DNA of 64,000 nucleotides from an uncultured Bacteroidota bacterium (GCA_902783595.1 CACZRR010000025.1:1999-65998); one strand, 5' to 3'. Positions 11,772 to 64,000 are shown, counted from the first letter of the stretch. A program made the numbers and translations. The notes: generated from the letters alone by a model not told the origin.

Positions 11772-11773
11772 CC

Positions 11774-12733
11774 ATGATAGCCCTCAACACTCCCGTCAGT
11801 GTCTCTCCCCTCCCCTTCACGGTGGACTTCGACAGCGGCATCGTCACCCTGGGATCGTGCTTTGCCGACGAGGTGGCACAGCGTCTGCTCGACGGTGGCT
11901 TCCGCGTCGACGCCAACCCTTTCGGCACCCTCTACAACCCTGCCTCCATCGCCGCGGCGTTGCAGCGCATCATCGACGACCGCGAGGTGGGTGCCGCCGA
12001 CCTTGTCGAGCGCGACGGCCTCTGGCATTCGTGGCACCACCACGGCGCCTTCTCGCGGCGGAGTGCTGAGGAGTGCCTCGACGCCTGCAACGGGCGTCTG
12101 CATGAGGCACACCGTCACCTGCGCCAGGCGCGGCTGCTCATGGTCACCTTCGGCACCGCCTGGATCTATGAGTTGAGGTCGGAGGTCGGAGGTCGGAAGG
12201 CGGCAGCTTCACAAGACACCTCCGACCTCCGTCTTCCGACCTCCGCCTTCCACGTTGTGGCCAACTGTCACAAAGTGCCGCCGCAGGCCTTTGTGCGGCG
12301 CATGATGGATGTCGACGAGATCGTGCAGCTGTGGCGTCCCCTGCTGCAACAGCTCTCCACTTTCAACCCTCACCTTTCCGTCATCTTCACCGTCTCCCCC
12401 ATCCGTCACCTGGCCGACGGTGCCCACGGCAACCAGCTCAGCAAGAGCACCCTGCTATTGGCTGTCGACCCACTTTCCACTCACATGGTGAGCCCGTCGA
12501 ACCACCACTCTCCACTTTCCACTTTCTACTTCCCCTCTTACGAGATTGTGCTCGACGAGCTGCGCGACTACCGCTACTACGGTCAGGATATGACGCATCC
12601 CACGGCGCTGGCTGTCGACATCGTCTACGAGCGTCTGCAGGGCGCCATCATGACCCCCGCCGTCGTGCAGCAGGCGCACCTCAACGCCAAGCGTCAGCGC
12701 CGCGACCGGCACATACCCCTGCACCAGTCATAA
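11774..12733 (+). CDS. GSCFA-family protein
   Basis: 319 aa from the ATG at 11774. Has the eponymous motif (VTLGSCFADEV) plus TFGTAW, VVANCHK, SPIRH and YFPSYEI..DELRDYR blocks. Confidence 0.85.
   Translation: MIALNTPVSVSPLPFTVDFDSGIVTLGSCFADEVAQRLLDGGFRVDANPFGTLYNPASIAAALQRIIDDREVGAADLVERDGLWHSWHHHGAFSRRSAEECLDACNGRLHEAHRHLRQARLLMVTFGTAWIYELRSEVGGRKAAASQDTSDLRLPTSAFHVVANCHKVPPQAFVRRMMDVDEIVQLWRPLLQQLSTFNPHLSVIFTVSPIRHLADGAHGNQLSKSTLLLAVDPLSTHMVSPSNHHSPLSTFYFPSYEIVLDELRDYRYYGQDMTHPTALAVDIVYERLQGAIMTPAVVQQAHLNAKRQRRDRHIPLHQS
12175..12251 (+). repeat. Inverted-repeat heptamer hairpin inside the GSCFA gene
   Basis: Left arm is GAGGTCG x3 + GAAGGCG (12175-12202). Loop is ~17-19 nt. Right arm is CTCCGAC CTCCGTC TTCCGAC CTCCGCC (12220-12247). 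Read in-frame as RSEVGGRKAAASQDTSDLRLPTSAF. Confidence 0.9.
12470..12534 (+). repeat. Second heptamer element (CCACTTT family) inside the GSCFA gene
   Basis: CCACTTT CCACTCA, a 21-nt spacer, then CCACTCT CCACTTT CCACTTT CTACTTC. Read in-frame as PLSTHMVSPSNHHSPLSTFYF. Confidence 0.8.
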
Positions 12734-14596: not shown

Positions 14597-14711
14597 CGTT
14601 CTTTCTTGTGCTCATAGCAACGCATAGGGCACTCGTTTATTGCCTTCGGACAATAAAAAAAGAGAGGCTGCGTTATTGCTTTTGAAAATCGATTTTTTCC
14701 ACTAAAACGCC

Positions 14712-18854: not shown

Positions 18855-19880
18855 ATGAAAAAGAATATAGCCCTCGTGATGGGTGGCTTCAGCGGCGAGC
18901 ACGACATCTCGATTGCCAGCGGACGTCAGGTCTATGAGCAGTTGGACCATAGTCGCTACAATGTGTACAAAATTGTGGTGGATCGTGCGGGCTGGTACTG
19001 GGAATGCGGCGACGAGCACAGACCCATCGACCGCGGCGACTTCACCGTCATCGATGCCGGCGTCACGGTTCATTTTGATTTAGCCTTTATCATCGTGCAT
19101 GGCAACCCCGGCGAAAACGGCGTGTTGCAAGGTTACTTCGATATGCTGGGCATCCGCTACACCACCTGTGGTTACTACACCTCCGCACTCACCTTCCATA
19201 AAGGCTACTGCAACCCCGTAGTAAAAAACTTTGGCATCGTCAAAGTAGCCAACTCGGTTCTGCTATATAAAGAACAGTGGGAAGTGGAAAGTGGGAAGTG
19301 GAAAGATGGAATAGTGCCAACCGACTCTCCGCAATCCTCTCTTCATCTCCCCGTTTTCGTGAAGCCGGCTGCCGGCGGCAGCAGCGTTGCCACCACCAAG
19401 GTGAAGAGCCCCGAGGCCCTGCCCGCCGCCATCCGTGAGGCTTTCACAGAAGATAGCGCAGTGCTGATAGAGGAAGCCATTGTAGGACGCGAGTTTGACT
19501 GCGGCGTATTCCGCAATGCAGACGGAGAATTGCTCCTGTTCCCTATCACCGAAATTATACCCAAAGGTGGACATGAATTCTTCGACTATGCTGCCAAGTA
19601 TGAGGGTTTCAGCAGCGAGGTGACCCCCGCCGAGGTCGACGAGCACACGGCACAACACATACAGGCGGTGTCGGCACAGCTCTACGAACGCCTGGGATGC
19701 AAAGGCATCGTACGCTTCGACTACATCCTCGACAGCGCCAACAACGAGCTCTACTTCCTGGAGGTGAATACCATCCCGGGACAGAGTGCAGAGAGCATCG
19801 TACCCAAACAAGCCCGTGCCATGGGCATCACGCCCGCCCAGCTCTACCAGATGAGCATCGAGGCGGCGATGAATAAGTGA
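18855..19880 (+). CDS. ddl: D-alanine--D-alanine ligase
   Basis: 341 aa. GGFSGEHDISIASG, HGNPGENG, FVKPAAGGSS and EVNTIPG motifs. Confidence 0.92.
   Translation: MKKNIALVMGGFSGEHDISIASGRQVYEQLDHSRYNVYKIVVDRAGWYWECGDEHRPIDRGDFTVIDAGVTVHFDLAFIIVHGNPGENGVLQGYFDMLGIRYTTCGYYTSALTFHKGYCNPVVKNFGIVKVANSVLLYKEQWEVESGKWKDGIVPTDSPQSSLHLPVFVKPAAGGSSVATTKVKSPEALPAAIREAFTEDSAVLIEEAIVGREFDCGVFRNADGELLLFPITEIIPKGGHEFFDYAAKYEGFSSEVTPAEVDEHTAQHIQAVSAQLYERLGCKGIVRFDYILDSANNELYFLEVNTIPGQSAESIVPKQARAMGITPAQLYQMSIEAAMNK
19277..19311 (+). repeat. Five tandem heptamers (AGTGGRA family) inside ddl
   Basis: AGTGGGA AGTGGAA AGTGGGA AGTGGAA AGATGGA, read in-frame as QWEVESGKWKDG. Confidence 0.85.
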
Positions 19881-19910
19881 ATAGTGAAAAATTAAAAGTG
19901 AAAAGTTAGA
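19876..19910 (+). repeat. Five tandem heptamers (AGTGAAA family) forming the ddl-to-asnS spacer
   Basis: AGTGAAT AGTGAAA AATTAAA AGTGAAA AGTTAGA, running from the ddl stop codon to 1 nt before the asnS ATG. Confidence 0.85.
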
Positions 19911-22586: not shown

Positions 22587-24113
22587 ATGGAGACTATCAT
22601 CATCTTAGACTTTGGTTCTCAGTACACTCAGCTGATAGCACGCAAAATTCGCGAGCAGAATGTCTACTGTGAAATACACCCTTACAACAAGATTCCCGTA
22701 CTTACAGAGAACGTAAAGGGGGTAGTCTTCTCCGGCAGTCCTTACAGCTGCAACGCAGCCGACGCACCCGTGCCAAACATGGAGGGTATCAAAGGTACAC
22801 TGCCGTTGTTGGCAGTATGCTATGGTGCGCAATACCTCGCCAAATGGGGCGGCGGACGTGTGCAGCAAAGCGCGAGCCGCGAATATGGCCGTGCCAACCT
22901 CACCACCATTGATAGCAGTAATCCCTTGATGAAAGGTATTTCCTCTGGCAGCCAGGTGTGGATGAGTCATGGCGACACCATCGAGCAGTTGCCGGAAGGC
23001 TACCGCGTGATCTGCTCAACCGAAAGCGTAAAGAATGCAGGATACCAGATTGAAGGGGAGCAGACCTATGCCATCCAGTTTCACCCCGAGGTGCACCATT
23101 CGCTTGACGGTACTACATTGCTGCACAACTTTTTGGTTGATATCTGTGGCTGTCACCAGGAATGGACGCCACAGAACTTCATTGAGACCACCGTGCACGA
23201 CCTGCGTGCCAAACTAGGCAACGACAAAGTGGTATTAGGCCTCAGCGGCGGTGTGGACAGCACCGTTGCCGCCGTACTCATCAGTCGTGCTATCGGCGAC
23301 CAGCTGCACTGCATTTTCGTTGACAACGGGCTACTGCGTAAAAACGAGTTTGAGAGTGTGCTTGCCTCGTACCGTGACATGGGTCTCAACGTGAAGGGCG
23401 TCGATGCCAAAGAGCGTTTTTACAGCGTGCTGGCAGGCGTCACCGACCCGGAAAAGAAACGCAAAGCGATCGGAAAAACATTCATCGATGTCTTCGATGC
23501 CGAAGCGAAGCTCATCACCGATGCCCGCTGGCTGGGTCAGGGGACCATCTACCCCGACGTCATCGAAAGCAGCAGTGTGAAGGGGCCAAGTCAGACCATC
23601 AAAAGCCACCACAATGTGGGCGGTCTCCCGGATTATATGAAGCTGCAGCTTGTAGAGCCACTCCGCCTGCTTTTCAAAGACGAAGTGCGCCGTATCGGAC
23701 GCCAGTTAGGGATCAAAGAGGAGCTCATCGGGCGCCATCCCTTCCCTGGCCCTGGTTTGGCCATACGCATCCTTGGCGATGTGACCCCTGAGAAAGTGCA
23801 CATCCTTCAAGAGGTGGACCACATTTTCATCCAAGGGTTACGCGATGCTGGGCTCTACGATAAGGTGTGGCAGGCCGGAGCCATACTGCTACCGATACAA
23901 AGCGTGGGTGTGATGGGCGACGAGCGGACCTATGAACGTGTAGTTGCGCTGCGCGCAGTGGAGAGCGTGGACGGAATGACCGCTGACTGGTGCCATCTGC
24001 CCTACGATTTTATGGCTCGCATCTCAAACGAGATTATAAACCATGTACGCGGTGTGAACCGTGTATGCTACGACATCAGTTCCAAGCCGCCAGCAACAAT
24101 CGAATGGGAATAA
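22587..24113 (+). CDS. guaA: Glutamine-hydrolysing GMP synthase
   Basis: 508 aa. GATase domain ([14 protein letters not shown]), ATP-PPase SGGVDS motif and C-terminal TIEWE. Confidence 0.96.
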
Positions 24114-34551: not shown

Positions 34552-34585
34552 ACCACGCTAACGACACCAAATAAAAAAAATTGTG

Positions 34586-40404: not shown

Positions 40405-41910
40405 TCAGCCGCAGTGGATAAAAGTCTCGACAAGTTCGAGGGTCTTCTGGGCGTCCTTGCCGATGTCGGCACGCAGGGTGCGGTCGTTAAAAGCACGCAA
40501 CTGCTTCAGAATACCGTCAACAAGCTGCGGCGCAAAGATACCATCCTGCTCATACACGGCGCGGTCGCGCTCCAGCAGGTCGGCGCTGGCTGCACAACTG
40601 TCGGGAAGCACATCAAGGCGCGACAGCACGTCCTCATGTTCAAAGATATTGACACTGACATAGCGGTCTTTGGCATACTGCACAGCATCAGCCATCTCAA
40701 AACCACGACGGGCGGCGACAGTCATACCGGCAAGCAGCAGGTATACATTGGCACTGCCGTCGGGAGTGCGCAGCTCGATAGTCTGCTTGTGGCTGAAGTC
40801 CACAGATTCCTTCTTCTCCAAAGGATTGACGACAGCCATCATATTTCCGCTGCCTTTGTTCCACCCCAGCGGAACGCGCACCATGGCGCTACGGTTGCGG
40901 TCGCCCCAGCAAATATTCGTCGGGGCCTCCTGATGCGGCACCAGGCGGAAGTAACTCGTGGGATTGGTGTTACCAAAGGCCGTGAGCGAACCTGCCAGGC
41001 TCAGAATACCAGCCATGGTCTTCATGGCCACATCACTCAATCCGTTCTCCCCGACATACATGTTTTTCCCATTCTGGCTCACACGTGTATGAATGTGCAT
41101 ACCGCTACCGGCCTTACCAACGGTAATCTTCGGCGCAAAGGTAATAGTGATACCATAGCGGTAGCCTAGCTCTCTCATCATCCATTTGGCTATCACCAAC
41201 TGGTCGGCAGCCTGCTCCAGCTTGGTGGGAAGAAACTCTATCTCGTTCTGCTCATACATCAGATCGCCATGCGTGAAGTTACCCACCTCGCTGTGCCCGT
41301 ATTTGATCTCACCTCCCGCAGCGGCAATCATGCGCATGGCCTCGGTGCGAAACTCTTCAAATTTACAGAAGGGCATGCTCACATGGTAGCCATGCTGGTC
41401 CTCAGCCATATACTGCTCCTCTTTGGGGGCTATGGCGTAGTATTCCAACTCGCCCATCACCTCAAAGTCCATACCGCCTGTCGCCTCACGGAAGGCTCGT
41501 GCCGCCTTCTGCAACGTGTATTCGGGAGCCAATGCAAAAGGTTCTCCGTCCTTGTTGAAGAAAGAACACAGCAGGTCTAACGTAGGCACCTCGCTGAAAG
41601 GATCCAGGAAAGCAGTGCGGAAACGCGGAATGACATACAGGTCCGAATTGCCGGCCTCGATGTAGGGAAACAGACTGCTACCGTCGACACGCTCACCGCT
41701 CGTCAGCACCTCGTCAGCATGCGCCAGACTCTGAATGACGAAGTTAAGCGTATGCAACTTGCCGTCATCAGCCATGTAGCGGAAGTTGAGCATCTCTATC
41801 TGGAACTCCTCAATAACCTTGAGGATATCAGCCTTAGTGAATTCGGCCATGGGCTTCTCCAGGAAAGCCACCAATGGATTGGGATTGAATTTCAGTTGTT
41901 CTTGTGTCAT
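40405..41910 (-). CDS. glnA: Glutamine synthetase (about 500-aa Bacteroidota type)
   Basis: 501 aa. GS beta-grasp and catalytic domain blocks (GSGMHIH, NRSAMVRVP). Confidence 0.88.
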   Translation of the reverse strand: MTQEQLKFNPNPLVAFLEKPMAEFTKADILKVIEEFQIEMLNFRYMADDGKLHTLNFVIQSLAHADEVLTSGERVDGSSLFPYIEAGNSDLYVIPRFRTAFLDPFSEVPTLDLLCSFFNKDGEPFALAPEYTLQKAARAFREATGGMDFEVMGELEYYAIAPKEEQYMAEDQHGYHVSMPFCKFEEFRTEAMRMIAAAGGEIKYGHSEVGNFTHGDLMYEQNEIEFLPTKLEQAADQLVIAKWMMRELGYRYGITITFAPKITVGKAGSGMHIHTRVSQNGKNMYVGENGLSDVAMKTMAGILSLAGSLTAFGNTNPTSYFRLVPHQEAPTNICWGDRNRSAMVRVPLGWNKGSGNMMAVVNPLEKKESVDFSHKQTIELRTPDGSANVYLLLAGMTVAARRGFEMADAVQYAKDRYVSVNIFEHEDVLSRLDVLPDSCAASADLLERDRAVYEQDGIFAPQLVDGILKQLRAFNDRTLRADIGKDAQKTLELVETFIHCG

Positions 41911-41964
41911 GATATATATGTGACTTTTATGGTTGTTTTACACATTTTTTTACAACGCCACCCA

Positions 41965-42170
41965 CCCCTTTTTATTGTCCCGCACAAACAAAAAAAAACA
42001 ATACCACCCACCCCTCTAAATTCTCTAAGACTTCTACGACTCGGAAATAAAAAATTGGAAACCAGCACTTTTCAAAACATATAATAGCCCAACACACTGA
42101 TTTACAACATCTCCCGACACCTCTCTCCAAGACCGCTCCATATCCGCTCCCATATCGCTCCCATCTCCTC
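41965..42170 (-). repeat. Dispersed non-coding repeat, copy A (5' leader/promoter region of glnA)
   Basis: Aligns with 58133-58335. Identical blocks include CAACACACTGATTTACAACA, ACCTCTCTCCAAGACCGCTCCATATCCGCTCCCA and CGCTCCCATCTCCTC, and the CCCCTTTTATTGTCCC(C)GCACAAACAAAAAAAAC block is near-identical. A CT-rich tail continues to ~42200. Confidence 0.85.
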
Positions 42171-42285
42171 GCATCTCTTCGCATCTCCCTCCCCCACTCT
42201 TTTTTTTCTCTACCCGACATACTAAATCGCACCCCCCATCGTTGACCTATAATTATTTTAATACCCACTCAATACCCCTACTATT

Positions 42286-43674
42286 ATGTTTAGCAAAGAA
42301 ACCTATATCGCCCGTCGCGAGCAGCTCCGCAAGGACATCAGCCACGGCATCATCATCATCCCCGGCAACCACGAAGCACCCTGCAACTACAAGGACAACA
42401 CTTACTGGTTCCGCCAAGATAGCACATTCCTCTACTTTTTTGGCCTGCAGCGTGAAGACCTCGTGGGCGTCATCGACTGCGACAGCGGAAAAGACTACCT
42501 CTTCGGCAACGACTACGACATCGACGACATCATCTGGACAGGCCCCCTGCCCTCCGTCAAAGAACTCGCCGCTAGCGTCGGCATCGACAACAGCGGATCC
42601 ATCGCCGAACTCCATAAATACCTCAACGCCAAACGCCCCACTTCCGCCTTACCTCATTACCTACCGCCCTACCGCGCCGACATACGCGCCGACATCAGCG
42701 AAATGCTCGGCGTCACCTACTCCGCCGTAAACCGCCACGCCTCACTCGATCTCATACTGGCATGCGTGAAACAACGCGCCGTAAAGAGCGCAGAAGAAAT
42801 AGAGGAAATCGAGAAAGCAATAGCCACGGCCTACAACATGCACGTCGGCGCCATGAAGATGGCCATGCCAGGTCGCTACGAATACGAACTTGCCGGATTC
42901 ATGGAGGGCGAAGCATGGAAAGGTAACGGCCCCGTCTCCTTCCCCGTCATCATGACAACACACGGCGAGACACTCCACAACCACGGCCACAACAACAAAC
43001 TGGAGGTGGGTCGCATGCTAGTGATGGATGCCGGATGCGAAACTCCCATGAACTATTGCTCCGATATCACACGCTCCGTTCCCGTGGGAGGACGCTTCAA
43101 TGAGCGTCAACGCACCATATACGAAATAGTGCTCAGCGCACAACTCGAGGCAGCACGCGTCACTCGCCCCGGCATCACTTACAAGGAGGTCCACCAGGCT
43201 GCCAGCCGCAAACTGGCAGAAGGATACAAGGAAATTGGCATACTCCGCGGCAACATCGACGACATCGTGGAAGCCGGCGCTCACAGCCTCCTCATGCCTC
43301 ACGGCCTCGGACACATGATGGGTCTCGACGTGCACGACATGGAGAACTACGGCCAGATCAACGTGGGATACGATAACGAAACACGCCCCTCCGAACAGTT
43401 TGGACTCGGTAGCCTCCGTTGCGGACGCCGTCTCCTGCCAGGCTACGTCATCACCGACGAGCCGGGATGTTACTTCATACCCGCTCTTATAGACAAATGG
43501 CACGCCGAAGGCACTTGCAAGGACTTCATCAACTTCGACGAACTGGAAAAATGGAAGGACTTCGGCGGCATACGTATCGAAGACGACGTACTCGTAACCG
43601 AAAAAGGATCTCGCATCCTGGGCAAACCTATCCCCAAGACGGTGAAGGAAATCGAAGAAACCATGGCCTCATAA
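42286..43674 (+). CDS. Xaa-Pro aminopeptidase (M24B family)
   Basis: 462 aa. N-terminal creatinase-like domain and pita-bread catalytic domain (HGLGHMMGLDVHD, EPG.Y, IRIEDDV). Confidence 0.85.
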   Translation: MFSKETYIARREQLRKDISHGIIIIPGNHEAPCNYKDNTYWFRQDSTFLYFFGLQREDLVGVIDCDSGKDYLFGNDYDIDDIIWTGPLPSVKELAASVGIDNSGSIAELHKYLNAKRPTSALPHYLPPYRADIRADISEMLGVTYSAVNRHASLDLILACVKQRAVKSAEEIEEIEKAIATAYNMHVGAMKMAMPGRYEYELAGFMEGEAWKGNGPVSFPVIMTTHGETLHNHGHNNKLEVGRMLVMDAGCETPMNYCSDITRSVPVGGRFNERQRTIYEIVLSAQLEAARVTRPGITYKEVHQAASRKLAEGYKEIGILRGNIDDIVEAGAHSLLMPHGLGHMMGLDVHDMENYGQINVGYDNETRPSEQFGLGSLRCGRRLLPGYVITDEPGCYFIPALIDKWHAEGTCKDFINFDELEKWKDFGGIRIEDDVLVTEKGSRILGKPIPKTVKEIEETMAS

Positions 43675-50955: not shown

Positions 50956-50980
50956 TTTAGATTATTTAGAGGTTTTAGAA
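50956..50980 (-). repeat. Three 9-nt units (minus strand TTCTAAAAC CTCTAAATA ATCTAAATT) in the sprA-to-TPR spacer
   Basis: TTTAG on the + strand at 50956, 50965 and 50974, exactly 9 nt apart. The first unit includes the sprA stop codon. Confidence 0.7.
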
Positions 50981-53900
50981 GGAGAAGCGTATAGTCAAAC
51001 CTCCTTTGGTGGTGGAGTTGGGGTAGGAGTTGGAGATGTAGGGTGTGTTGATGTTGGTCTGGAAGAAGGCACGTGCCGTGAGCGACGAGGTGAGGGCGTA
51101 CTCAGCACTCAACTCGGCCATCCACACCTTGCTGCCCGAGGAGATCTGACTGATGTTCTGGTTTATCTTGCGTATGTTGGTTTTGTTGCTGTTGTAGGTG
51201 ATATTGAGCTGCAGGACGATATCGCTCTTGAGGTCGTGGGTGCGGTCGGCGAACTTCACCTTGAAGGCGACGTCCTTGAAGCGGTAGCCGGCGCCAACGG
51301 TGAAACCGTCGCGGGTGGTCTCCGTGAGTTGGTTGTTGGAGAAGGAGAGCATCAGCGTGCGATTTTTCTGCAACGAAAAATTGAACTGCACATTGTTCAC
51401 CATGGCTACCGCCACCTTGAGGAGCGGGTTGAACTGCTCCGTGATCTGCACACCTTCCATGGTAACGGGGGGGATATAGTCACCGCTGTTGTTGAGCAAT
51501 GTCTCGGCGCCATAATCGTAGTCGTCGTTGCCTGACAAGGCTGCGTCGGTGTAGTAGTTGCCAACGGTGTAGGTCGAAGCATAGCGGTGTGACAGAGTGA
51601 TATTGGTGAACCACTGCTTGAGGAACTGGATCTTGTTCAAGCCCGTATAATTGATGTTCCAGTTGGGGAGGGGAAACCTGAGGAACGGCGAGAAACCCTG
51701 CGTGGCTGCACTACCTCCCGTATAGGTAGCGAGGAAAGAAGTGAGCAAGACGGTCTGCGAGTTGGGACTATATCCTGCCGGAAAATACTGTCCAGACATA
51801 CTGTCGAGCACCATCTGGTCGGTGTAGGTGTCGGGGTTGGCAGCGGCCAGGCGCTGTGCCACAATGGCGCGATTGGAAAGGAATGTCTCGAAAAGCGCGT
51901 CAGCATCGGAGAAGGCGGTAGCGAAGGTCCAAGTGGTGGTGCTATAGGTGCCTGTCATCGTGGGCAACAGGGGCCCCTGCACACTGCCGTAGTCGGCGAG
52001 GTACTTGTAGTAGTACTGCTCTCGCGACGACTGCGACTGCTGCGCGTTGAGCGTAATCTTCATATCACGTATGGGCTCTACATTGGCCTGCAGCGTCAGG
52101 CTTTTGTTCGCCGTCATCTCGTGGGGCGTATTGAACAGCGAGTCGGCAGAGAGCAGGTCTCGACGTAGCAGATCTTCGGCGACATCCATGTCGTAGCCCA
52201 GAATATACCCCACTCCAGGCGTCCAGCCAGCCTGTGGATCGAGCCCGACAAACTGGGGTACGCCCATATAACCCGGCAGCCGCGAGCCCCAGCTGTTGTT
52301 GTACTGCACGGTGAGATCCTTCCACGCAGTGAGCAGACGCAATCCGGCATACCCCAAGCCTTTCAACATCTCTTTCCGTTGCTCACGGCGTAGGCTGTCG
52401 GCAACAGCCACAGAGTCTTTGGCACTCATCTTGTCTTGCCCACGCAGCCGCCGCTGAGGCTGCTGGCGCGCAGGCGTTTTGGCAGCATTGGCAGCCTTCA
52501 GAAGCTTCGACTTGTTATAGAGGTTCAGAAAGTTGGCAGAACCCGTGGCAGTGAAGGTGGTAGCACCCTGCAACGTGCCGCCCATCGACTGCAGAGCCTG
52601 CGATGCACCTTGGAAGTTATACGTCGTGCGATAGCTCAGTGGCACGCGTACGAAATCCAGATAGGGCAGCTTGTTGATAGGCAGGTCATAAGTAACATTG
52701 ATCTGTTGCTGGAAGTTCTGAAGCGTGCCTCCCGAGGCGATGGATCGCCAAATGGAATCGACGGCAGACTGGCTGCTAATGGCCCCCATAGGCTCTTCGA
52801 TACGCGCACTGGCATTGGCGGAATACTGTATGTGCAGCGTCTTCATCAGGTCGTACTGCAACCCGTAGGTACGCTGCCAAGTGAACTGCTTGAAGTAGGT
52901 GGGCTTGATGATGACCAGTGCGGCACTCTTGTTGCGCAACAAGGTCTCCTCAAAGTCTCGATAGATTTCAGTAGAGAAGTTCAGGTTCTTAGGCATGTAA
53001 TAGAAGTTGAACTCCTTGAGCAGCTTCCACGCCTTACCCTGGAAGAGTTTCACCTTGCTGAACGGCGTCACAGGCTCCGCCTTGGGCGAATAGTTGTAAG
53101 TGAAGCCCCCACGGTGTTGGTCTTTATTGTAGTGCTCTATCTCCTCGTCACTGTTGCGCTCGCGGCTGTAGGCGTAAGTGAACGAGAAATTCTCTATGTC
53201 ATAGAAATGTGGTGTCAGTGCAGCCTCGCCTACCCGCTCCTTACGCACATTGGCGAGGGTGAGGTTGGTGGCACTCTTGCGCCGTTGGGTCATTCGGCGC
53301 ACACTGTCTCGCTCTGCGCTGGTGCGGTAGGTGTCTATATCTTCGCTGAGTAGCACATCTGGGTTGTAAGGATTGTATTCCGGACTGCCGATTTCGCGAC
53401 TGTGATCTATGTAGAAAGGTATGTGAAGTCCCCATTCCTCTGGCAAAAACTTGCCCAACTCTAGATCCAGGGTGGTCTGGAAGTTGAAGGTGTTCATGTA
53501 CTCTTCCTTGATGAGCGGGTCTTCGAGGTTGCCGAAATGGGCTGTTGTGTAGCTGCCATAAAGCGACAGGTTGCCAAGGTCAGCAAGGTTGGTACGCGCC
53601 ATCAACATGGCCGCCCAGCCTCCCTTGTTGGTGTAGTCGCTCAGACGCATCTCATTAAGCCACACAATAGCCGACTTGGGCATCATGTTGTTGCCGTCGT
53701 CGAGGCTCTGCTTGCGAGGGTTGCGGACACCAACCATGATGACCTTCACCTTGCCAAGGTTGGGGGTGCCCAGCACGGTGTACTTCTTGTCGCCCACCAT
53801 CTCGCTATACAGCAATGTCGGCGAGTAGCCCGTTTCACATCCGCGAATACGGCGGTTGCGGTTGGTCTTGATGTCGGGAAGCTTCTGCAGGTCGATATCC

Positions 53901-56900
53901 ACATTGTTCGCCCGCGGCCAGATGCCGTAATCGTCGTCGGTGGGCGTATACCACGGGGTGAGCTTCAGCGGCACCTCGTATTCGTAGTAGTTGTTGGTAT
54001 AGTCGCTACCCAGTCGCACGAAGAGCACCAGGTCATCGTCGTCCAGCATGTCGGTGGCATACTTCTTCTCGGCGTGGACGAACATCTTCAGGTGTCCGTA
54101 TTGGCGAAGGTCGTAGCTCGTGGAACGGTAGATAGCTCGTGCATCGCCACTGGCGAGGGCGTCGATGTCGAGTTCTATGCTCTGCTCGTTGAGTTGCGTG
54201 TAGCTGTTGCTGGTCGAGTACCACTCCTCGCGCTCAATGCCGGGAGGTAGCACGTAGGGAACGGGCTGTCGGCTGCCGTTTTCCTCGATATTCACCGTAC
54301 TGATGTTGAAGGAGGTACCCTCGTCACCTCCTCCTGTATAGTCGCCAGGCTCCAGCAGGTCCTCGCTGTACTTGCGCCACGTCGAATAGACCAGGTCGAG
54401 GGTGGCGAAACGCAGGATGATGGGCTCCTCAAAGCCGTTGAGGAACATACGCATGAAGCGTATTGACTGGTACCCGTTGATGTTGCCCACCTTCTGGTCG
54501 GGCTCACGTATGGGAATGCGGAACTGGTACCACTTACAGGTGGTAGTCTCCCCATTGGCAAGTTGCACATTGCGCGCCTCCTGGATGTCAACGATATGGT
54601 TCTCACCAATATTCATGTGCGCAGGGTCCAACTCCACAACATACTGGTAGTAGTTCTCGGCCTCGCTGAGGGTGTTGTCCTTGTTGATGTCCTCGACATT
54701 GGGATAGGCCGAAGCAGAGGTCATATACTCTTCGTCGCTATCCTCATCTACGGGCGAGTTGCCCTCGGCGTTATTGAAGTATTTGTAGCGATCGTTGACT
54801 TTGGTGTTGTTCTGATCCCAATAGGAGGAACGGAAATAGCGGAAGTCGTCGCTCGACGGGTCGGCAGAGGCTTCCTGATAGGCGCGCGAGGAGGTGCCGT
54901 AGCGCGCCGCGATAGCAGCAAGGTAGTCGGCGAAGAAAGTCTGCTCGTCATCGATGCCGTGGGTGGAGCCCAAGCCGTCATACCCTACATCCTGGTACAT
55001 GCGCGACGCAGCATCGTTGTCGAAAGCATTGACGATGGGCTGCGCCGCCGGCACACGACCCCAGATGGTGGTGTCGACACCCGTGACGGCAGCACTCGTG
55101 GGCAGCCCATTCTCAAAACCCTTCCGACCATCGCGCAATATATCCTCACTGATGTCGCCAAGGTTCAGATAGAGGCGTCCGCCGCTATGGTTGGGTCGCT
55201 CTATGAATGGATCCATGAGCCAGAACTCTATGGTCTCAATGTTCTGTGTCTCAAAATCGGTGTAGTCCATCTTGCGCATGATGCCGCCCCAACGGCTGGC
55301 GGGGTTCACCAGGGTGCCGCTGTCGGTGATGCCGGCACTGTAGGCGGTGGGGTCGACGTCGTAGTTGTAGGGACCCTTCTCCTCAGGGTAGTAGGCCAGG
55401 TTGAGCTCATAAATGTAGGTGGGCTGTCCCGCAACACGGTCTTTGTTGGGGAAGACTTCCTGCTCATAGATGCGACGCGCATAGGGCTTTGAGAGGTCTT
55501 CGTTGTTGATGTTGCCAGGACGGTTGGTCTGGAAGTAAAAGTCGTTGCTGATGCGGTACCACGCCAGACGCGCACGATTATATCCATAGGCCAATCCCGT
55601 ACCAGGACTCGTCTCAGGGAACAGGGGCATGGGCATACGCCAGTCCTGCGGCGTGCTGGCAAGGTACCACATGGCGGGGGTGACAAGGCTGATGTTGCTC
55701 TCGGCACCCTCGAAGTCGTCAATATAACTCACACTGCCCTCGCTGCTCCCCGTCGACGACATGCCGGGAATGAAATGGGCAAACTCGGCAGTGAGACTCA
55801 GCTTCGAAGGCTCCTTGGTGTCTATCCCGGGAAGCTTGTCGATGAGCTTGGTGATGAAGGGCACTTCGTGACTGTAGTTCACATCAAGGCCCCAGATGGT
55901 GTTGCTGGTCGGCTCGTCGCCAAAGTTGTTTTTCTGCGTCAATGGCTTCTCATGCAGGTTCATGACCGTGCCTCCAATGTTGAAGTCTTTATCCACCTCA
56001 TAGTTCAGGTGCAACCCCAACATCCTCTTGGTGGTCATGCTGAAGGAGTTATTCTCCGAACTCACACTGATGGGAGTGCCCGAAGCCAAAATGCTCTCGT
56101 TGATGATACGCACCGTACCCATGGTGTAGTCGACAGAGTAGTCAACATTCTCTATCAATGGCACTCCTCCGGCGGTAACGGTGACGCTACCCTGCGTGAC
56201 GCTGTAGCCAAGGGAGATCTCGCCGCTCACGGAACTGGTGTAGTAGCCCTCCAGGTAGAAGCGGTTCCTGTCGGCATACTGCTGCGCCAAACTCTTGGTC
56301 ATGGTGTAGAGCGAGTCAAAGCAGTAGCGGTTAGCATAGTCATCGTCACCCAATATAGCCCGCAAATCGCGACCAAAAGGCTCAACATATGGGAAGAAAA
56401 CACGGCCCGTACTGCTCTGTATGAGTCCCCCCTTATAAGCCGCCGAGTCAAACCAGTCGAACACTCCGTCGGCATAGTAATAGCTCTGCGAAGCATCCAT
56501 GCGGTCCATCCCGAAAAGCTCGATGAGAGGGATACCTTGCTTGGGACCGTCGGTGAAAAAGCCGACGCCAACGCCACCCTCATTGCTCTCGTAAAGCACA
56601 TTGAGACGGAAATTGTCGCGACTGAGCTGGCTACTCTTGAGGAAGTAGACATTCTTCATCATGAGCTTCCACAGAGGACTATGGGTGTCTATGGTGGTAC
56701 TCTTGAGCAGCTTGACGATGAGTGTGCTGGGGTCGTTGACGCCATCCGTCGTCAGCTCACCAACCTGGTACACATTGGTATCGCCCACCACCTGGTATTG
56801 GAAAGCAACGGCGAGCACCTGGTCATTGCTGAGAGGCTGGTTCAAGGTAATGAAGCCCAACTGAGAATTGAAGGTGTACTCGTTGCTGTTGAGCAACCGC

Positions 56901-58087
56901 GCACTCTCCACCTTCTCGTAGTCGACGCCAGCCGTGAGACCCAGGCCCTGCATGTGGCTGGTGACGGCGTTGATACTACGCACGCTGCCGCTACCTATAA
57001 CCTGCAGCATGTCGTTGGCGGTATTGCTGGGCATCACGGCTCCCATTCCGTGAAAGCGAAAGTTGGAAGGCACACCCTCGCCAAGGTCTGTCAAGGCAAG
57101 AATGTTGCGGTTCTGCGTGACAGCAGCACCCACATTCGTACGCCACACCTCAATACGCAATATGCGCACGTTGCTGTTCACCACCGGCAGCGTACTCATA
57201 GCCCTATTGTAGTTGTCATAGAAGTACTGCGCGATGAAGTAGTGTCGATTGTCCTCGTACTCGTCGGCGCGTATCTCGAACTCATGGCTGCTGGCACCAC
57301 CCTTCACCTGCATATTCTCCGTGCTGGTCTCCTTCTCACTGAGCACAGCATCAATGGTCAGTCGGCCAAATTTCAACTTGGTGTGGAAACCCCACAGTTG
57401 TTGGCTGCCTTTGATAAGATTGGTGCTCAACGGAAACGACACATCGGCTGCTTCGAGCAGTTGCAGGATATCGTCCTCCTTGCCCTCATAGCGCAGCACC
57501 TTTTTGTTCTCAAAGTCGAAGGTGGCTTGCGTGTTGTGGCTGATGTCAAAAGTGATAAGGTCGCCTATCTTGGCACTGACATTGGCCTGTATCTTCTCGT
57601 CAAAGTCGAAGGTGGTGACGCTACGCTCATTCTCGTCGCGCTGCGGATCGTTACGGTAGTTGTTCACGATCTGGAAGGTGAGTTCCGCACTGCCCGAAGG
57701 GGTAATCTTGATCTCCGGCTTGCCCATCACGGCCTCCAGCTTCGAACTGATACCACTGAAACCAGGTATCTTGCTCAGCAAACCACCATCACCACCGTCA
57801 AGCACCGACCCCTCGCTCTTCTCGTTCCAGTACTGCGACATCAGCTCGTCCATCTTCCAGTCCTGGTAGTCGTCAAAGGTCATATACTCCCTGCTCACCA
57901 CCACATCACCTATCCGAGTGACACGCACATAGTCACCACGCTCAGCATTATACTCCACGGTGGTCTGCAGCACCGACGGGCTATACCCACTGCCCATCGG
58001 CCTATACACACTGTCGTCCTGACCGTATGCCACCGGCACCGCGAACAGAACACATACAAGGAGTATCAGCCGTTTTAGGGTCAACAA
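50975..58087 (-). CDS. sprA: T9SS translocon protein SprA
   Basis: 2370 aa. Signal peptide, size and sequence character of SprA/Sov, C-terminal beta-barrel ending RFSF. Only a TTG start is available (58087). Confidence 0.92.
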   Translation of the reverse strand: MLTLKRLILLVCVLFAVPVAYGQDDSVYRPMGSGYSPSVLQTTVEYNAERGDYVRVTRIGDVVVSREYMTFDDYQDWKMDELMSQYWNEKSEGSVLDGGDGGLLSKIPGFSGISSKLEAVMGKPEIKITPSGSAELTFQIVNNYRNDPQRDENERSVTTFDFDEKIQANVSAKIGDLITFDISHNTQATFDFENKKVLRYEGKEDDILQLLEAADVSFPLSTNLIKGSQQLWGFHTKLKFGRLTIDAVLSEKETSTENMQVKGGASSHEFEIRADEYEDNRHYFIAQYFYDNYNRAMSTLPVVNSNVRILRIEVWRTNVGAAVTQNRNILALTDLGEGVPSNFRFHGMGAVMPSNTANDMLQVIGSGSVRSINAVTSHMQGLGLTAGVDYEKVESARLLNSNEYTFNSQLGFITLNQPLSNDQVLAVAFQYQVVGDTNVYQVGELTTDGVNDPSTLIVKLLKSTTIDTHSPLWKLMMKNVYFLKSSQLSRDNFRLNVLYESNEGGVGVGFFTDGPKQGIPLIELFGMDRMDASQSYYYADGVFDWFDSAAYKGGLIQSSTGRVFFPYVEPFGRDLRAILGDDDYANRYCFDSLYTMTKSLAQQYADRNRFYLEGYYTSSVSGEISLGYSVTQGSVTVTAGGVPLIENVDYSVDYTMGTVRIINESILASGTPISVSSENNSFSMTTKRMLGLHLNYEVDKDFNIGGTVMNLHEKPLTQKNNFGDEPTSNTIWGLDVNYSHEVPFITKLIDKLPGIDTKEPSKLSLTAEFAHFIPGMSSTGSSEGSVSYIDDFEGAESNISLVTPAMWYLASTPQDWRMPMPLFPETSPGTGLAYGYNRARLAWYRISNDFYFQTNRPGNINNEDLSKPYARRIYEQEVFPNKDRVAGQPTYIYELNLAYYPEEKGPYNYDVDPTAYSAGITDSGTLVNPASRWGGIMRKMDYTDFETQNIETIEFWLMDPFIERPNHSGGRLYLNLGDISEDILRDGRKGFENGLPTSAAVTGVDTTIWGRVPAAQPIVNAFDNDAASRMYQDVGYDGLGSTHGIDDEQTFFADYLAAIAARYGTSSRAYQEASADPSSDDFRYFRSSYWDQNNTKVNDRYKYFNNAEGNSPVDEDSDEEYMTSASAYPNVEDINKDNTLSEAENYYQYVVELDPAHMNIGENHIVDIQEARNVQLANGETTTCKWYQFRIPIREPDQKVGNINGYQSIRFMRMFLNGFEEPIILRFATLDLVYSTWRKYSEDLLEPGDYTGGGDEGTSFNISTVNIEENGSRQPVPYVLPPGIEREEWYSTSNSYTQLNEQSIELDIDALASGDARAIYRSTSYDLRQYGHLKMFVHAEKKYATDMLDDDDLVLFVRLGSDYTNNYYEYEVPLKLTPWYTPTDDDYGIWPRANNVDIDLQKLPDIKTNRNRRIRGCETGYSPTLLYSEMVGDKKYTVLGTPNLGKVKVIMVGVRNPRKQSLDDGNNMMPKSAIVWLNEMRLSDYTNKGGWAAMLMARTNLADLGNLSLYGSYTTAHFGNLEDPLIKEEYMNTFNFQTTLDLELGKFLPEEWGLHIPFYIDHSREIGSPEYNPYNPDVLLSEDIDTYRTSAERDSVRRMTQRRKSATNLTLANVRKERVGEAALTPHFYDIENFSFTYAYSRERNSDEEIEHYNKDQHRGGFTYNYSPKAEPVTPFSKVKLFQGKAWKLLKEFNFYYMPKNLNFSTEIYRDFEETLLRNKSAALVIIKPTYFKQFTWQRTYGLQYDLMKTLHIQYSANASARIEEPMGAISSQSAVDSIWRSIASGGTLQNFQQQINVTYDLPINKLPYLDFVRVPLSYRTTYNFQGASQALQSMGGTLQGATTFTATGSANFLNLYNKSKLLKAANAAKTPARQQPQRRLRGQDKMSAKDSVAVADSLRREQRKEMLKGLGYAGLRLLTAWKDLTVQYNNSWGSRLPGYMGVPQFVGLDPQAGWTPGVGYILGYDMDVAEDLLRRDLLSADSLFNTPHEMTANKSLTLQANVEPIRDMKITLNAQQSQSSREQYYYKYLADYGSVQGPLLPTMTGTYSTTTWTFATAFSDADALFETFLSNRAIVAQRLAAANPDTYTDQMVLDSMSGQYFPAGYSPNSQTVLLTSFLATYTGGSAATQGFSPFLRFPLPNWNINYTGLNKIQFLKQWFTNITLSHRYASTYTVGNYYTDAALSGNDDYDYGAETLLNNSGDYIPPVTMEGVQITEQFNPLLKVAVAMVNNVQFNFSLQKNRTLMLSFSNNQLTETTRDGFTVGAGYRFKDVAFKVKFADRTHDLKSDIVLQLNITYNSNKTNIRKINQNISQISSGSKVWMAELSAEYALTSSLTARAFFQTNINTPYISNSYPNSTTKGGLTIRFSF

Positions 58088-58132
58088 GGTTTGCCTTTTT
58101 ATATATAATAACCCGTATTAAACGACCTCGCT

Positions 58133-58335
58133 CCCCTTTTATTGTCCCCGCACAAACAAAAAAAACATATCACCCTCCCTTATAATTTTCCAAGGCCTCT
58201 AAACCTCAGCAATAAAAAACTGGAAATTAACAACTTCCGCAACCACAAATAACACAACACACTGATTTACAACACCTCCAATCACCTCTCTCCAAGACCG
58301 CTCCATATCCGCTCCCAGTCCGCTCCCATCTCCTC
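58133..58335 (-). repeat. Dispersed non-coding repeat, copy B (between the ruvA stop and the sprA start)
   Basis: See copy A. Same orientation relative to the downstream minus-strand gene. A CT-rich tail continues to ~58400. Confidence 0.85.
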
Positions 58336-58406
58336 CTCTCTAAAAAAGGCCTCCCAAAAGCATCCCCTCCGATACTCTCTCCTACCCCTCCAATCTTCCA
58401 AATCCC

Positions 58407-59006
58407 CTACAGTTTCTGCAGGCCTACCTTGATAATCTCCTCCACCGTCATCGCCGTACCATCCGCATGGCGCCAGTCATTGGCAGTGAGGAATTTCTCA
58501 ACGGCCGTCTTCTGGAAGCCCAGCATGACAAGGGCTGACAGAGCCTCGTCGCGAGCCACATTAGCCTGCGCGGCCATCGGCGAAACCGTCGACACGCCTA
58601 TACCGCCCACCTTGTCGGCCAATTCAAGGACGATTCTCTGCGCTGTCTTCGCACCTATCCCCTTCACTCTCTGTACCTTACGCACATCCTGCGTAGCTAT
58701 GGCACCTTTCAGGTCGTCGACGGTAAGCGATGACAACATCACACGCGCCGTCTGTGCACCTACACCGTTCACACCAATGAGCAGTCTGAACATCTCGCGC
58801 TCCGCGAGGTCTCCGAAACCAAAGAGCAGATGAGCATCCTCGCGCACTACATGGTGGGCATAGAGTTTCACACGACCCTCATCAGCCTTCTGCAGCTGCT
58901 GGTATGTGTTGAGGGTAATCTCCAGCAGGTAGCCCACGCCACCGCAATCCACAACAGCCTGTGTAGGCTCCAACGAAGCCAAACGGCCCTCAAAATATTC
59001 GTACAT
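58407..59006 (-). CDS. ruvA: Holliday junction branch migration protein RuvA
   Basis: 199 aa. MYEYFEGRL, GVGY and HhH motifs (LIGVNGVGAQTA, VKGIGAKTAQRI). Confidence 0.93.
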   Translation of the reverse strand: MYEYFEGRLASLEPTQAVVDCGGVGYLLEITLNTYQQLQKADEGRVKLYAHHVVREDAHLLFGFGDLAEREMFRLLIGVNGVGAQTARVMLSSLTVDDLKGAIATQDVRKVQRVKGIGAKTAQRIVLELADKVGGIGVSTVSPMAAQANVARDEALSALVMLGFQKTAVEKFLTANDWRHADGTAMTVEEIIKVGLQKL

Positions 59007-63806: not shown

Positions 63807-63900
63807 TAGCTCCACTCCCAGCGAACGCAACTCCTCGTCAAGCTCCGCTTGATTGTCGGAGAGCGTCATCAACATGTCTCCTTCTGTCTAATCTACAACC

Positions 63901-63928
63901 TAAAACGCAAAACGAACAGCATTAAACT
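63901..63928 (+). repeat. Short heptamer run (TAAAACG CAAAACG plus 2 degenerate units) abutting the aroQ stop
   Basis: Same unit sequences as the 5451-5541 array. Ends directly at the aroQ stop codon (63929-63931). Confidence 0.55.
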
Positions 63929-64000
63929 TTACACCCCCTCCGCCAAGCAGCGAATGGCCATCTCATAGCCCCGCAATCCCAATCCACAAATCATCCCCTT
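63929..64000 (-). CDS. aroQ: Type II 3-dehydroquinate dehydratase, C-terminal fragment (continues beyond window)
   Basis: The minus frame reads KGMICGLGLRGYEMAIRCLAEGV*, typical of an AroQ C-terminus. Confidence 0.65.
   Translation of the reverse strand, partial: KGMICGLGLRGYEMAIRCLAEGV

What the first reader, a model, noticed from the sequence alone, without database searches (positions are those of the whole stretch)
41911..42285. Non-coding repeat of about 205-240 bp in the glnA leader, duplicated upstream of sprA
41965-42170 aligns with 58133-58335. There are long identical blocks: 20 nt CAACACACTGATTTACAACA, 34 nt ACCTCTCTCCAAGACCGCTCCATATCCGCTCCCA and 15 nt CGCTCCCATCTCCTC, plus a near-identical CCCCTTTTATTGTCCC(C)GCACAAACAAAAAAAAC block. 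Between these are diverged stretches and 1-nt indels in homopolymers. Both copies have the same orientation and similar distance (about 45-55 nt) relative to the start codon of the downstream minus-strand gene, glnA here and sprA there. Both continue into a CT-rich tail. The 98-aa ORF across copy A is not preserved in copy B, so the element is non-coding. It could be a shared promoter/leader cassette, a cis-regulatory RNA or a MITE-like element. No TAnnTTTG box is evident inside it.
Basis: seen in the sequence. Interest (0 to 1): 0.65.

Follow-up and report, generated by a model that had tools for sequence, protein, structure and literature searches.

The report
Duplicated promoter-upstream DNA with dispersed repeat
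A real 205-base non-coding repeat lies upstream of glnA and sprA in an uncultured rumen Bacteroidales genome: it is a two-copy duplication of promoter-upstream DNA that carries one unit of a new, abundant short dispersed repeat, and it is not a structured RNA or leader.

Summary
Window 41966-42170 and 58133-58335 are 80% identical over 206 nt (blastn E 5e-47), in the same orientation, 56 and 46 nt from the glnA and sprA start codons.

The repeat is a mosaic of three parts.
- The gene-proximal ~35 nt is the T-tract and -35 half of a promoter-like motif, ACAATA-N15-CGTT(AT). In this clade the motif lies just upstream of many genes (25 of 25 matches).
- The middle ~90 nt is truly homologous but only 65% identical, and it is the most variable part between strains.
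- The distal ~80 nt is one unit of a dispersed repeat family: three to four 11-bp-phased GGAGCGGnnnn units, about 20 nt, then a TTGTAAATCAG-like motif. By metagenome depth this unit occurs tens of times (about 30-100x) in the same genome.

Only the two window copies share the full 205 nt. Relatives lack the element upstream of glnA. Parts of copy B are ancestral at sprA.

There is no Rfam hit, no fold better than shuffles and no conserved ORF, and the cDNA runs with contigs on the flanking genes have none on either copy.

Best reading: a species-specific duplication or gene-conversion tract of promoter-upstream DNA. One end is a dispersed repeat and the other a shared promoter block. The function of the repeat unit is unknown. 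Interest is moderate to low.

The parts
41966..42170 (-). Copy A of the 205-nt repeat, upstream of glnA (sense strand = minus)
   Evidence: blastn 80% over 206 nt to copy B, E 5e-47. Alignment. Conserved in same-species strain variants L056/L057.
58133..58335 (-). Copy B of the 205-nt repeat, in the ruvA-sprA spacer
   Evidence: Conserved in same-species contigs L016, L018, L029 and L030.
41954..41978 (-). Promoter-like bipartite motif ACAATAAAAAGGGGTGGGTGGCGTT in front of glnA. Its -35 half lies inside copy A. Its -10-like CGTT and the 43-nt leader lie outside.
   Evidence: Exact ACAATA-N15-CGTT: 4 in the window vs 0.06 expected. 25 of 25 relaxed matches in the window and relatives lie 4-96 nt upstream of a long ORF on the same strand. 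Orthologous to the glnA upstream of L014 (z 9.9).
58121..58145 (-). The same promoter-like motif, ACAATAAAAGGGGAGCGAGGTCGTT, in front of sprA (TTG start at 58087)
   Evidence: Orthologous to the sprA upstream of L024 (z 6.6).
41966..41997 (-). Shared proximal block of copy A (T-run, GTTTGTGCGGG, ACAATAAAAAGGGG). B counterpart: 58133-58165.
Evidence: In orthologous promoters only the T-run and ACAATA are conserved, so the identity reflects common descent.
41998..42088 (-). Diverged middle of copy A (65-67% identical to B 58166-58254)
   Evidence: Most within-species substitutions in copy A fall here.
42090..42178 (-). Dispersed-repeat unit in copy A. It holds the CTGATTTACAA motif (42097-42107) and the 11-nt tandem array CTCCnnnnCCG x3-4 (42125-42169), which reads GGAGCGGnnnn on the minus strand.
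   Evidence: DNA depth rises from about 55 to about 1700 (run X1) and from about 36 to about 730 (run X2) only at 42117-42170. Unitigs break at 42123/42147. TRF finds period 11.
58249..58335 (-). Dispersed-repeat unit in copy B. Motif at 58262-58272, 11-nt array at 58290-58333.
   Evidence: Depth is about 51 rising to 4200-5200 (X1) and about 37 rising to 2400-3000 (X2) at 58294-58332. Other copies' contigs align over 50-78 nt within 58249-58333 and have the same depth as this genome in both runs.
42171..42285 (-). CT-rich (plus strand) tail of the glnA-pepP spacer, not shared with copy B. It holds 10-nt units CTCGCATCTC (42158-42188) and a weak ATACTA-N15-CGTT on the plus strand (42219-42243) in front of pepP.
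   Evidence: The pepP motif was read from the sequence and matches only 4 of 6 in the first half, so it is tentative.
58336..58406 (-). CT-rich (plus strand) tail between copy B and the ruvA stop codon, not shared with copy A
   Evidence: Depth is single-copy.

Best explanation
The 205-nt repeat is non-coding DNA that was duplicated, or copied by gene conversion, between the upstream regions of sprA and glnA within one uncultured rumen Bacteroidales species. It does not encode a structured RNA.

It is a mosaic of three parts.
1. The gene-proximal ~35 nt is the T-tract and -35 half of a promoter-like motif, ACAATA-N15-CGTT(AT). In this clade the motif lies in front of many unrelated genes. Each copy keeps its own spacer, -10-like element and short leader, which are orthologous to those of relatives. 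Transcription of glnA and sprA is therefore inferred to start about 25-35 nt before the start codon, downstream of almost the whole repeat.
2. The middle ~90 nt shows no sign of constraint.
3. The distal ~80 nt is one unit of a short dispersed repeat. It consists of three to four 7-bp GGAGCGG-like direct repeats with 4-bp spacers (11-bp phasing), about 20 nt, then a TTGTAAATCAG-like motif. The unit is present tens of times in the same genome and is not found in the sampled loci of related species.

The likeliest history is as follows. The sprA upstream region already held the TTGTAAATCAG module and a repeat unit. A large fn3/Flg_new_2 gene lies between pepP and glnA in relatives and is missing here. 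After that loss, a tract bounded by the dispersed repeat on one side and the shared promoter block on the other was copied in front of glnA.

Shown: the repeat, its mosaic structure, the copy numbers, the lack of RNA structure, and the positional enrichment of the motif. Inferred: promoter function, the direction of copying, and any role of the repeat unit. The most plausible role for the unit is a phased protein-binding array or a selfish repeat.
For: - Repeat significance and extent.
- Only two full-length copies. With copy A as the reference, depth is 1x over 42003-42087, 2x over 42089-42116 and about 30x only over 42117-42170. With copy B as the reference, depth is 1x outside 58138-58176 and 58242-58345, and 80-100x over 58294-58332.
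- The other copies belong to the same genome. Their flanking contigs have depth 48-59 in X1 and 34-37 in X2, matching the 51-55 and 36-37 of this locus.
- Family unit. Loose ends of at least 10 other copies differ on both sides, but they share a YTGnAAATCAG-like motif in a fixed register about 20 nt from the array.
- Promoter-like motif. There are 4 exact matches in the window against 0.06 expected. 25 of 25 relaxed matches lie upstream of ORF starts, always with a 15-nt spacing.
- Orthology. The -10-like CGTT and promoter spacer of A match the glnA upstream of L014 (z 9.9). Those of B, with the first bases after CGTT, match the sprA upstream of L024 (z 6.6). GTGATT..TGTTGTAA(A/T)TCA(G/C)TG of B is also found in the sprA spacer of L024 (p = 0.006). 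The glnA upstream regions of six relatives lack the distal parts and have a ~1900-2100-aa gene there instead.
- No RNA. Rfam finds nothing. Fold z-scores are +0.8, +0.3, +2.3 and +0.85. The plus strand is 8% G. No ORF is conserved. The cDNA runs with contigs on the flanking coding sequence (X25, X26, X28, X34 at copy A; X25, X26, X28, X30 at copy B) have none on that copy.
- Strain comparison. Substitutions cluster in the middle, and the arrays are invariant.
Against: - No transcription start has been mapped. Logan contigs of low-depth metatranscriptomes cannot exclude a rare long leader.
- Three libraries labelled metatranscriptomic but 'WGS RANDOM' (X27, X29, X31) do have contigs over parts of the spacer at gene-like depth.
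- The promoter role of ACAATA-N15-CGTT rests only on position and enrichment.
- The direction of copying rests on one relative (L024) and a p = 0.006 match.
- The other family members are known only from 30-nt flanks and depth. Some could therefore share the middle at under 80% identity and go unseen.
- Depth counts array units, so the number of loci (perhaps 10-100) is uncertain.
- The near-identity of the proximal block and the core, against 65% in the middle, could reflect selection for a shared function rather than homogenisation.
Confidence: 0.55

Rival explanations
1. The whole ~205 nt is a member of a mobile promoter cassette or MITE-like family with many copies. Only the core is conserved enough to be seen by depth at 80% identity or more.
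For: The core is multi-copy. Even copy B is invisible to the copy-A depth profile across the middle, so diverged middles in other copies would be missed. Both known copies lie at the same distance and orientation from a start codon.
Against: The sequenced flanks of other copies stop resembling A and B right after the AATCAG motif: 3 of 10 matches in the next 10 nt (loose ends). There are no terminal inverted repeats. The proximal end of each copy is orthologous to its own locus in relatives. No further copy occurs in about 86 kb of this genome.
Confidence: 0.13
2. The repeat unit is a cis-regulatory protein-binding array. The 7-bp direct repeats with 4-bp spacers have Pho-box-like 11-bp phasing, and there is a half-palindrome beside them. 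The array would place glnA, sprA and other loci under one regulator.
For: The phasing is exactly 11 bp, as GGAGCGG ATAT GGAGCGG TCTT GGAG. The arrays are invariant between strains while their neighbours vary. The unit lies upstream of promoter-like motifs at both loci.
Against: Copies are near-identical even in the spacers, which points to common descent rather than selection for binding. The array lies about 150-190 nt from the -35 element. The unit is not found at the orthologous promoters or in any of the relatives' loci sampled. No regulator has been identified.
Confidence: 0.15
3. The element is transcribed and acts as RNA. Either it is a long G-rich leader of glnA and sprA, or it is a C-rich, G-poor, unstructured plus-strand RNA, such as a Rho-loading (rut-like) tract that stops antisense or read-through transcription, or a CU-rich small RNA.
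For: The plus strand is 34-37% C and 8% G. Copy A on that strand folds worse than all 200 shuffles (-5.5 kcal/mol over 216 nt), which is rut-like. Runs X27, X29 and X31 show low-depth contigs on parts of the spacer.
Against: The cDNA runs with contigs on the flanking genes have none on that copy. The 'WGS RANDOM' runs may contain DNA. There is no Rfam family. There is no canonical TAnnTTTG promoter and no intrinsic terminator in the element on either strand. No compensatory structure is possible with so little G or C.
Confidence: 0.08
4. The similarity is chance low-complexity similarity or a mis-assembly across a repeat.
For: Both spacers are compositionally extreme, and Logan unitigs break in the core.
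Against: E is 5e-47, with collinear homology through the non-repetitive middle. Seven independent assemblies agree.
Confidence: 0.01

Closest known systems
BrickBuilt minisatellite-containing MITE of Porphyromonas gingivalis (Klein et al. 2015, PMC4596501)
   Same: It is also from Bacteroidales. It is a species-restricted, strictly intergenic dispersed element built around a short tandem repeat with flanking non-repeat parts. It is present in about 19 copies, lies tens to hundreds of nt from coding sequences, and is linked to promoters.
   Different: BrickBuilt has 23-nt units and inverted-repeat ends on its leader and tail. Here the units are 11 nt in 3-4 copies, and no inverted ends or hairpin are found. 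Promoter activity of this unit has not been tested.
REP / REPIN elements mobilised by RAYT transposases (PMC3116915, PMC3733652)
   Same: They are short, abundant, intergenic repeat populations that are lineage-specific. A RAYT-like Y1 transposase flanked by GC-rich palindromes exists in a relative (L026).
   Different: REPs are 20-40-bp palindromes with GTAG or CGTC tags. This unit is not palindromic: one strand has 8% G, so it cannot form a hairpin. The palindromes next to the relative's Y1 transposase are unrelated in sequence.
Segmental duplication or ectopic gene conversion of promoter regions between dispersed repeats (general bacterial genome evolution; own knowledge)
   Same: There are two copies 16 kb apart in the same orientation. 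The tract ends in sequences that occur elsewhere (a dispersed repeat and a common promoter block). Divergence along the tract is uneven.
   Different: The recombination event was not observed. The direction is inferred from one outgroup.
Pho-box-type response-regulator sites (7-bp direct repeats, 4-bp spacers; own knowledge)
   Same: The architecture is 7 + 4 bp with 11-bp phasing and 3-4 repeats.
   Different: The sequence is unrelated. The array lies far upstream of the -35 element instead of overlapping it. Copies are too alike for independently selected sites. No regulator is known.

Membership tests
MITE | Terminal inverted repeats | tested here: not met
   No inverted repeat lies at the ends of the 205-nt repeat or of the ~80-nt unit. 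The only arms found are chance A/T-run matches of 70%.
MITE | Target-site duplication and insertion polymorphism (filled versus empty sites) | not testable with these tools
   Other copies are known only from 30-nt flanks. No empty site is available. All same-species contigs carry both copies.
MITE | Small, non-coding, multi-copy within one genome | tested here: met
   This holds for the ~80-nt unit only: about 30-100x the genome depth, with flanking contigs at genome depth in two runs. No ORF is conserved. The full 205 nt has only 2 copies.
REP/REPIN | Imperfect palindrome of 20-40 bp able to form a hairpin | tested here: not met
   The plus strand is 8% G. Folding energies are no better than shuffles on either strand. 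No internal inverted repeat is found.
REP/REPIN | A cognate single-copy RAYT gene flanked by the same repeats | not tested
A Y1_Tnp gene in relative L026 is flanked by unrelated GC-rich palindromes.
BrickBuilt-like minisatellite element | Head-to-tail tandem units without spacers, flanked by conserved leader and tail parts | tested here: inconclusive
   A tandem array of 11-nt units (3.2-3.4 copies, TRF) and a conserved flanking motif on one side (loose ends) are present. No conserved part is seen on the other side, and there are no inverted ends.
Structured cis-regulatory RNA / riboswitch / known sRNA | Match to a curated family, or a conserved and stable secondary structure | tested here: not met
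   Rfam finds nothing at gathering threshold and only chance-level hits at E up to 10. Fold z-scores are +0.3 to +2.3.
Transcribed 5' leader of glnA / sprA | Sense transcripts that cover the element and continue into the gene | tested here: inconclusive
   cDNA-run contigs stop at 41890/41891 in glnA and at 58072 in sprA, and none lies on the element. 'WGS RANDOM' runs reach 41952 and 41965 and cover 42010-42152 and 42117-42282 at low depth. Depth is too low and contigs carry no strand.
Canonical Bacteroidetes sigma-ABfr promoter (TTTG ... TAnnTTTG; PMC7366714) | A TAnnTTTG box at about -7 | tested here: not met
   There is no TAnnTTTG on either strand in 41911-42285 or 58088-58406. Typical GTATCTTTGCA boxes occur at other spacers of the window.
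ACAATA-N15-CGTT promoter-like class (defined here) | Bipartite motif with fixed 15-nt spacing, upstream of and co-oriented with a start codon | tested here: met
   Both copies carry it (41954-41978 and 58121-58145, minus strand). Enrichment and position are shown. That it is a promoter, and which sigma factor reads it, was not tested.

The most novel reading that the evidence does not exclude
The ~80-nt unit could be a mobile cis-regulatory module. It would be a helically phased array of GGAGCGG sites plus a TTGTAAATCAG half-site, bound by one regulator. By spreading to tens of promoter-upstream regions, it would have wired nitrogen assimilation (glnA), type IX secretion (sprA) and other genes into a young, species-specific regulon. 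This would parallel the lineage-specific short tandem arrays seen at other spacers in this clade.
Probability: 0.1. Interest if true: 0.7.

Novelty: new variant of a known kind. Interest (0 to 1): 0.35.

Why it matters
If the reading is right, the finding itself is ordinary genome dynamics: a duplicated stretch of promoter-upstream DNA.

It does expose two features of a poorly known group of rumen Bacteroidales that may be worth following.
- A short dispersed repeat family that is abundant, strand-asymmetric and non-palindromic. It does not fit the REP or MITE definitions.
- A second promoter-like motif, ACAATA-N15-CGTT(AT), used next to the canonical TAnnTTTG box and sometimes only 4-12 nt from the start codon.

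Both would help in annotating promoters and repeats in rumen metagenome-assembled genomes. The core also explains why assemblies of this species break at such spacers.

Tried and rejected
- Rfam at gathering and permissive thresholds gave no credible hit.
- The sigma-70 promoter and intrinsic-terminator scans found nothing meaningful in either spacer.
- The exact 20-mer CAACACACTGATTTACAACA against species-representative genomes gave six chance hits, for example inside ribD of a Prevotellaceae MAG.
- The core 20-mer CCGCTCCATATCCGCTCCCA against JGI metagenome contigs gave one unrelated hit (L008), and none in viral contigs.
- The degenerate array pattern against viral contigs gave 25 hits. They are unrelated, mostly 33-nt coding repeats.
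- blastn of the element against plasmid and phage collections found nothing.
- A six-frame pseudo-protein of the core was searched against the protein database, to catch spurious ORF calls on other copies. Nothing scored at E up to 10.
- I looked for further copies in about 10 kb beyond the window end and in about 300 kb of relatives' loci. None was found.
- A sigma-54 promoter (TGGCAC-N5-TTGC) and a leader peptide (MGAxWERIWSGLGER) were considered by eye and dropped. The boxes do not match, and the peptide frame is broken differently in the two copies.
- RNA-guided transcription targets (dCas12f-sigmaE, PMC13472631) were considered and dropped. No such locus or guide is in evidence.

Full report
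**Observation**

The two stretches are really there. Copy A (41966-42170) and copy B (58133-58335) align at 80% identity over 206 nt (blastn E 5e-47). A 26-nt core pattern with up to three mismatches hits only these two places in the window, against 0.00 expected from shuffles.

Pfam confirms the neighbours:
- glnA at 40405-41910(-);
- a divergent Xaa-Pro aminopeptidase (pepP) at 42286-43674(+);
- ruvA at 58407-59006(-);
- sprA at 50975-58087(-).

Copy A therefore lies in a divergent spacer, and copy B lies between ruvA and sprA on the same strand. Both whole spacers are compositionally extreme, with 8% G on the plus strand. Only one other spacer in the window comes close: 5430-5564, 10% G, a 7-nt tandem array.

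**Origin of the window**

The glnA protein is found on an ENA rumen MAG scaffold. The DNA is held by many bovine-gut metagenome runs. Close homologues are labelled 'Bacteroidales bacterium'.

**Not an RNA element**

- Rfam finds nothing at gathering threshold and only chance-level hits at E up to 10.
- Neither strand of either copy folds better than its shuffles, with z +0.8, +0.3, +2.3 and +0.85. The plus strand of copy A folds worse than all 200 shuffles. With so little G on one strand, and so little C on the other, stems cannot form.
- No reading frame is preserved between the copies.
- In bona fide cDNA metatranscriptomes (X25, X26, X28, X30, X34), contigs cover coding parts of glnA, pepP, sprA and ruvA but never either copy. 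The glnA contigs end at 41890/41891 and a sprA contig ends at 58072.
- Three libraries labelled metatranscriptomic but 'WGS RANDOM' do show low-depth contigs on parts of the A spacer: up to 41952 and 41965, 42010-42152, and 42117-42282. These cannot be told from carried-over DNA. Transcription of the element is therefore unproven, and an abundant RNA is unlikely.

**Copy number**

I laid Logan contigs of rumen DNA runs on copy A. Depth is single-copy (about 55 in X1, about 36 in X2) over most of the spacer. It is doubled over 42089-42116, where A and B both match. It jumps to about 1700 and about 730 only over 42117-42170, and unitigs end at 42123/42147.

With copy B as the reference, the same core (58294-58332) reaches 4200-5200 and 2400-3000. 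That is 80-100 times the local depth.

The contigs that carry other copies have the same depth as this genome in both runs: 48-59 against 51-55 in X1, and 34-37 against 36-37 in X2. The copies therefore lie in the same genome. They align over 50-78 nt within 58249-58333.

Their 30-nt flanks differ from each other on both sides. On the gene-ward side, however, they share a YTGnAAATCAG-like motif in a fixed register about 20 nt from the array.

The core itself is three to four tandem 11-nt units, which read GGAGCGG plus 4 nt on the minus strand.

So the full 205 nt exists twice, while an ~80-nt unit is a dispersed repeat with tens of copies. Depth counts array units, so the number of loci is uncertain, perhaps 10-100.

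No further copy lies in the other ~86 kb of this genome that I could reach. None is in about 300 kb from related species, nor in the plasmid, phage or viral collections.

**Orthologous loci**

Upstream of glnA in relatives with 86-91% GlnA identity, a gene of about 1900-2100 aa (fn3/Flg_new_2) lies between pepP and glnA. It is absent from the window. Only the last ~90 nt before glnA is conserved: a T-run, then ACAATA(A/T)A, 13 nt, CGTT, and an A-rich leader ending ATATATATCATG. The promoter spacer and -10-like CGTT of copy A match L014 (z 9.9).

At sprA, same-species contigs keep copy B. One relative (L021/L022) has only a 115-nt spacer with a hairpin terminator. Another (L024, RuvA 78% identical) has ACAATATAAGGGGCGAGGTTGCGTTTA, which is orthologous to the copy B promoter spacer and CGTT region (z 6.6). 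L024 also has GTGATTATGTGTTGTAATTCACTG, which resembles the TTGTAAATCAG module of B (p = 0.006).

Each copy thus keeps a locus-specific -10-like region and leader. The shared block upstream of it, GTTTTTTTT(T)GTTTGTGCGGG(G)ACAATAAAA(A)GGGG, is far more alike between A and B than either is to its orthologues. That points to copying within this lineage. The L024 match suggests that sprA was the donor.

The middle 90 nt is homologous (z 11) but only 65-67% identical. In a strain variant (L056/L057), most substitutions in copy A fall in the middle, while the arrays are unchanged. The arrays are also invariant among copy B variants.

**The proximal block as a promoter**

- The pattern ACAATA-N15-CGTT occurs four times in the window against 0.06 expected.
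- A relaxed form, ACAAT[AT]-N14-16-CGTT, gives 25 matches in the window and relatives' loci.
- All 25 have a spacing of exactly 15 nt.
- All 25 lie 4-96 nt upstream of a long ORF on the same strand. The genes include glnA, pepP, sprA, aroQ and an M64 peptidase.
- The canonical Bacteroidetes TAnnTTTG box (PMC7366714) is present at other spacers of the window but is absent from both spacers of the finding.

I therefore read ACAATA-N15-CGTT(AT) as a second promoter class. This is inferred and untested. It may correspond to the '-10/-30' motif PM2 of B. thetaiotaomicron, whose sequence is not given in the text I could read.

On this reading, transcription starts about 25-35 nt before the start codons, and almost the whole repeat lies upstream of the -35 element.

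**Synthesis**

The finding is a species-specific duplication or gene-conversion tract of promoter-upstream DNA. At one end is a dispersed repeat unit, and at the other a promoter block that both loci already shared. The repeat unit belongs to a new family that resembles BrickBuilt of P. gingivalis (PMC4596501) in being an intergenic, species-restricted element built around a short tandem array. It fails the defining tests for MITEs (no inverted ends) and for REPs (no palindrome; PMC3733652).

What the unit does is unknown. Its 7+4-bp phasing and its invariance between strains allow a protein-binding role. Its near-identity between loci, including the spacers, fits a selfish or homogenised repeat at least as well.

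**Confidence by claim**

| Claim | Confidence |
|---|---|
| Real non-coding repeat | >0.95 |
| Not a structured RNA | ~0.9 |
| Core is multi-copy in the same genome | ~0.85 |
| Proximal block is part of a promoter | ~0.65 |
| sprA-to-glnA direction of copying | ~0.55 |

Noticed in passing
window 1291-1315(-), 14650-14674(+), 34560-34584(-), 41954-41978(-), 58121-58145(-); L009, L011, L014, L015, L021, L022, L024 (sites); L026 near 9905-9935: A bipartite motif, ACAAT(A/T)-N15-CGTT(AT), lies just upstream of many unrelated genes in this clade, always with a 15-nt spacing. In several cases the ATG is only 4-12 nt after CGTT, which implies leaderless or very short leaders. It is distinct from the canonical TAnnTTTG box, which also occurs in the window. 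It may be a second promoter class.
   Followed up: partly
window 5452-5540, 6855-6947, 9059-9088, 11736-11769, 12175-12251, 12505-12531, 19276-19316, 19870-19906, 63885-63947: The window holds many short tandem arrays of 7-11-nt units. Several recur at distant sites in either orientation: TCCACTT and AGTGGAA, CTCCGAC and GAGGTCG, and AAAACGT. Some form long hairpins made of tandem units, such as the 44-nt arms at 6859-6947.
   Followed up: partly
window 11736-12330 (array hairpin at 12175-12251): This stretch looks coding (GC-rich, codon-like) but has no long ORF. It contains a hairpin of GAGGTCG units and their inverse. It could be an insertion of a palindromic array into a gene, or a pseudogene.
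   Followed up: no
L014 11500-11700 vs L015 11500-11760: Two genomes with the identical GlnA protein carry completely different tandem arrays in the glnA-HPPK spacer (GTAGTTA in one, GGAGATAA in the other). Each array has a matching inverted partner 60-130 nt downstream. The arrays therefore turn over fast and arrive as inverted pairs.
   Followed up: no
L026 9930-9965 and 11505-11560: In this relative, 9-nt arrays (GACCCTAGG upstream, TAGGGACYC downstream) flank glnA in inverted orientation, in the predicted 5' and 3' untranslated regions. They could pair across the mRNA.
   Followed up: no
window 41911-42285 vs L009, L011, L014, L015, L026 (about 3.3-9.9 kb in locus coordinates): A ~1900-2100-aa gene with fn3/Flg_new_2/Cleaved_Adhesin domains lies between pepP and glnA in all sampled relatives. 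It is missing in this species.
   Followed up: partly
L026 1660-2440 (also L027, L028): A 148-aa Y1 (IS200-like, HUH) transposase lies between PRK and pepP. It is flanked on both sides by GC-rich palindromes such as TGCCCCTGCGGGGCGTTAAT, which looks like a RAYT with its REPs. At the same spot, L014 and L015 have a 23S-rRNA-IVP/bAvd-like gene instead.
   Followed up: no
window 58087; L021 10713; L024 10911: sprA starts with TTG in this genome and in relatives. A signal peptide follows directly.
   Followed up: partly
window 22971-23989: The stretches between the short minus-strand ORFs here look like plus-strand coding sequence. They may be a mis-chosen frame in my crude gene map, or a disrupted gene.
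   Followed up: no
L017, L019, L020 (ends): Three independent Logan contigs all stop 108 nt after the ruvA stop codon, inside the repeat core. The core therefore breaks short-read assemblies of this species.
   Followed up: yes
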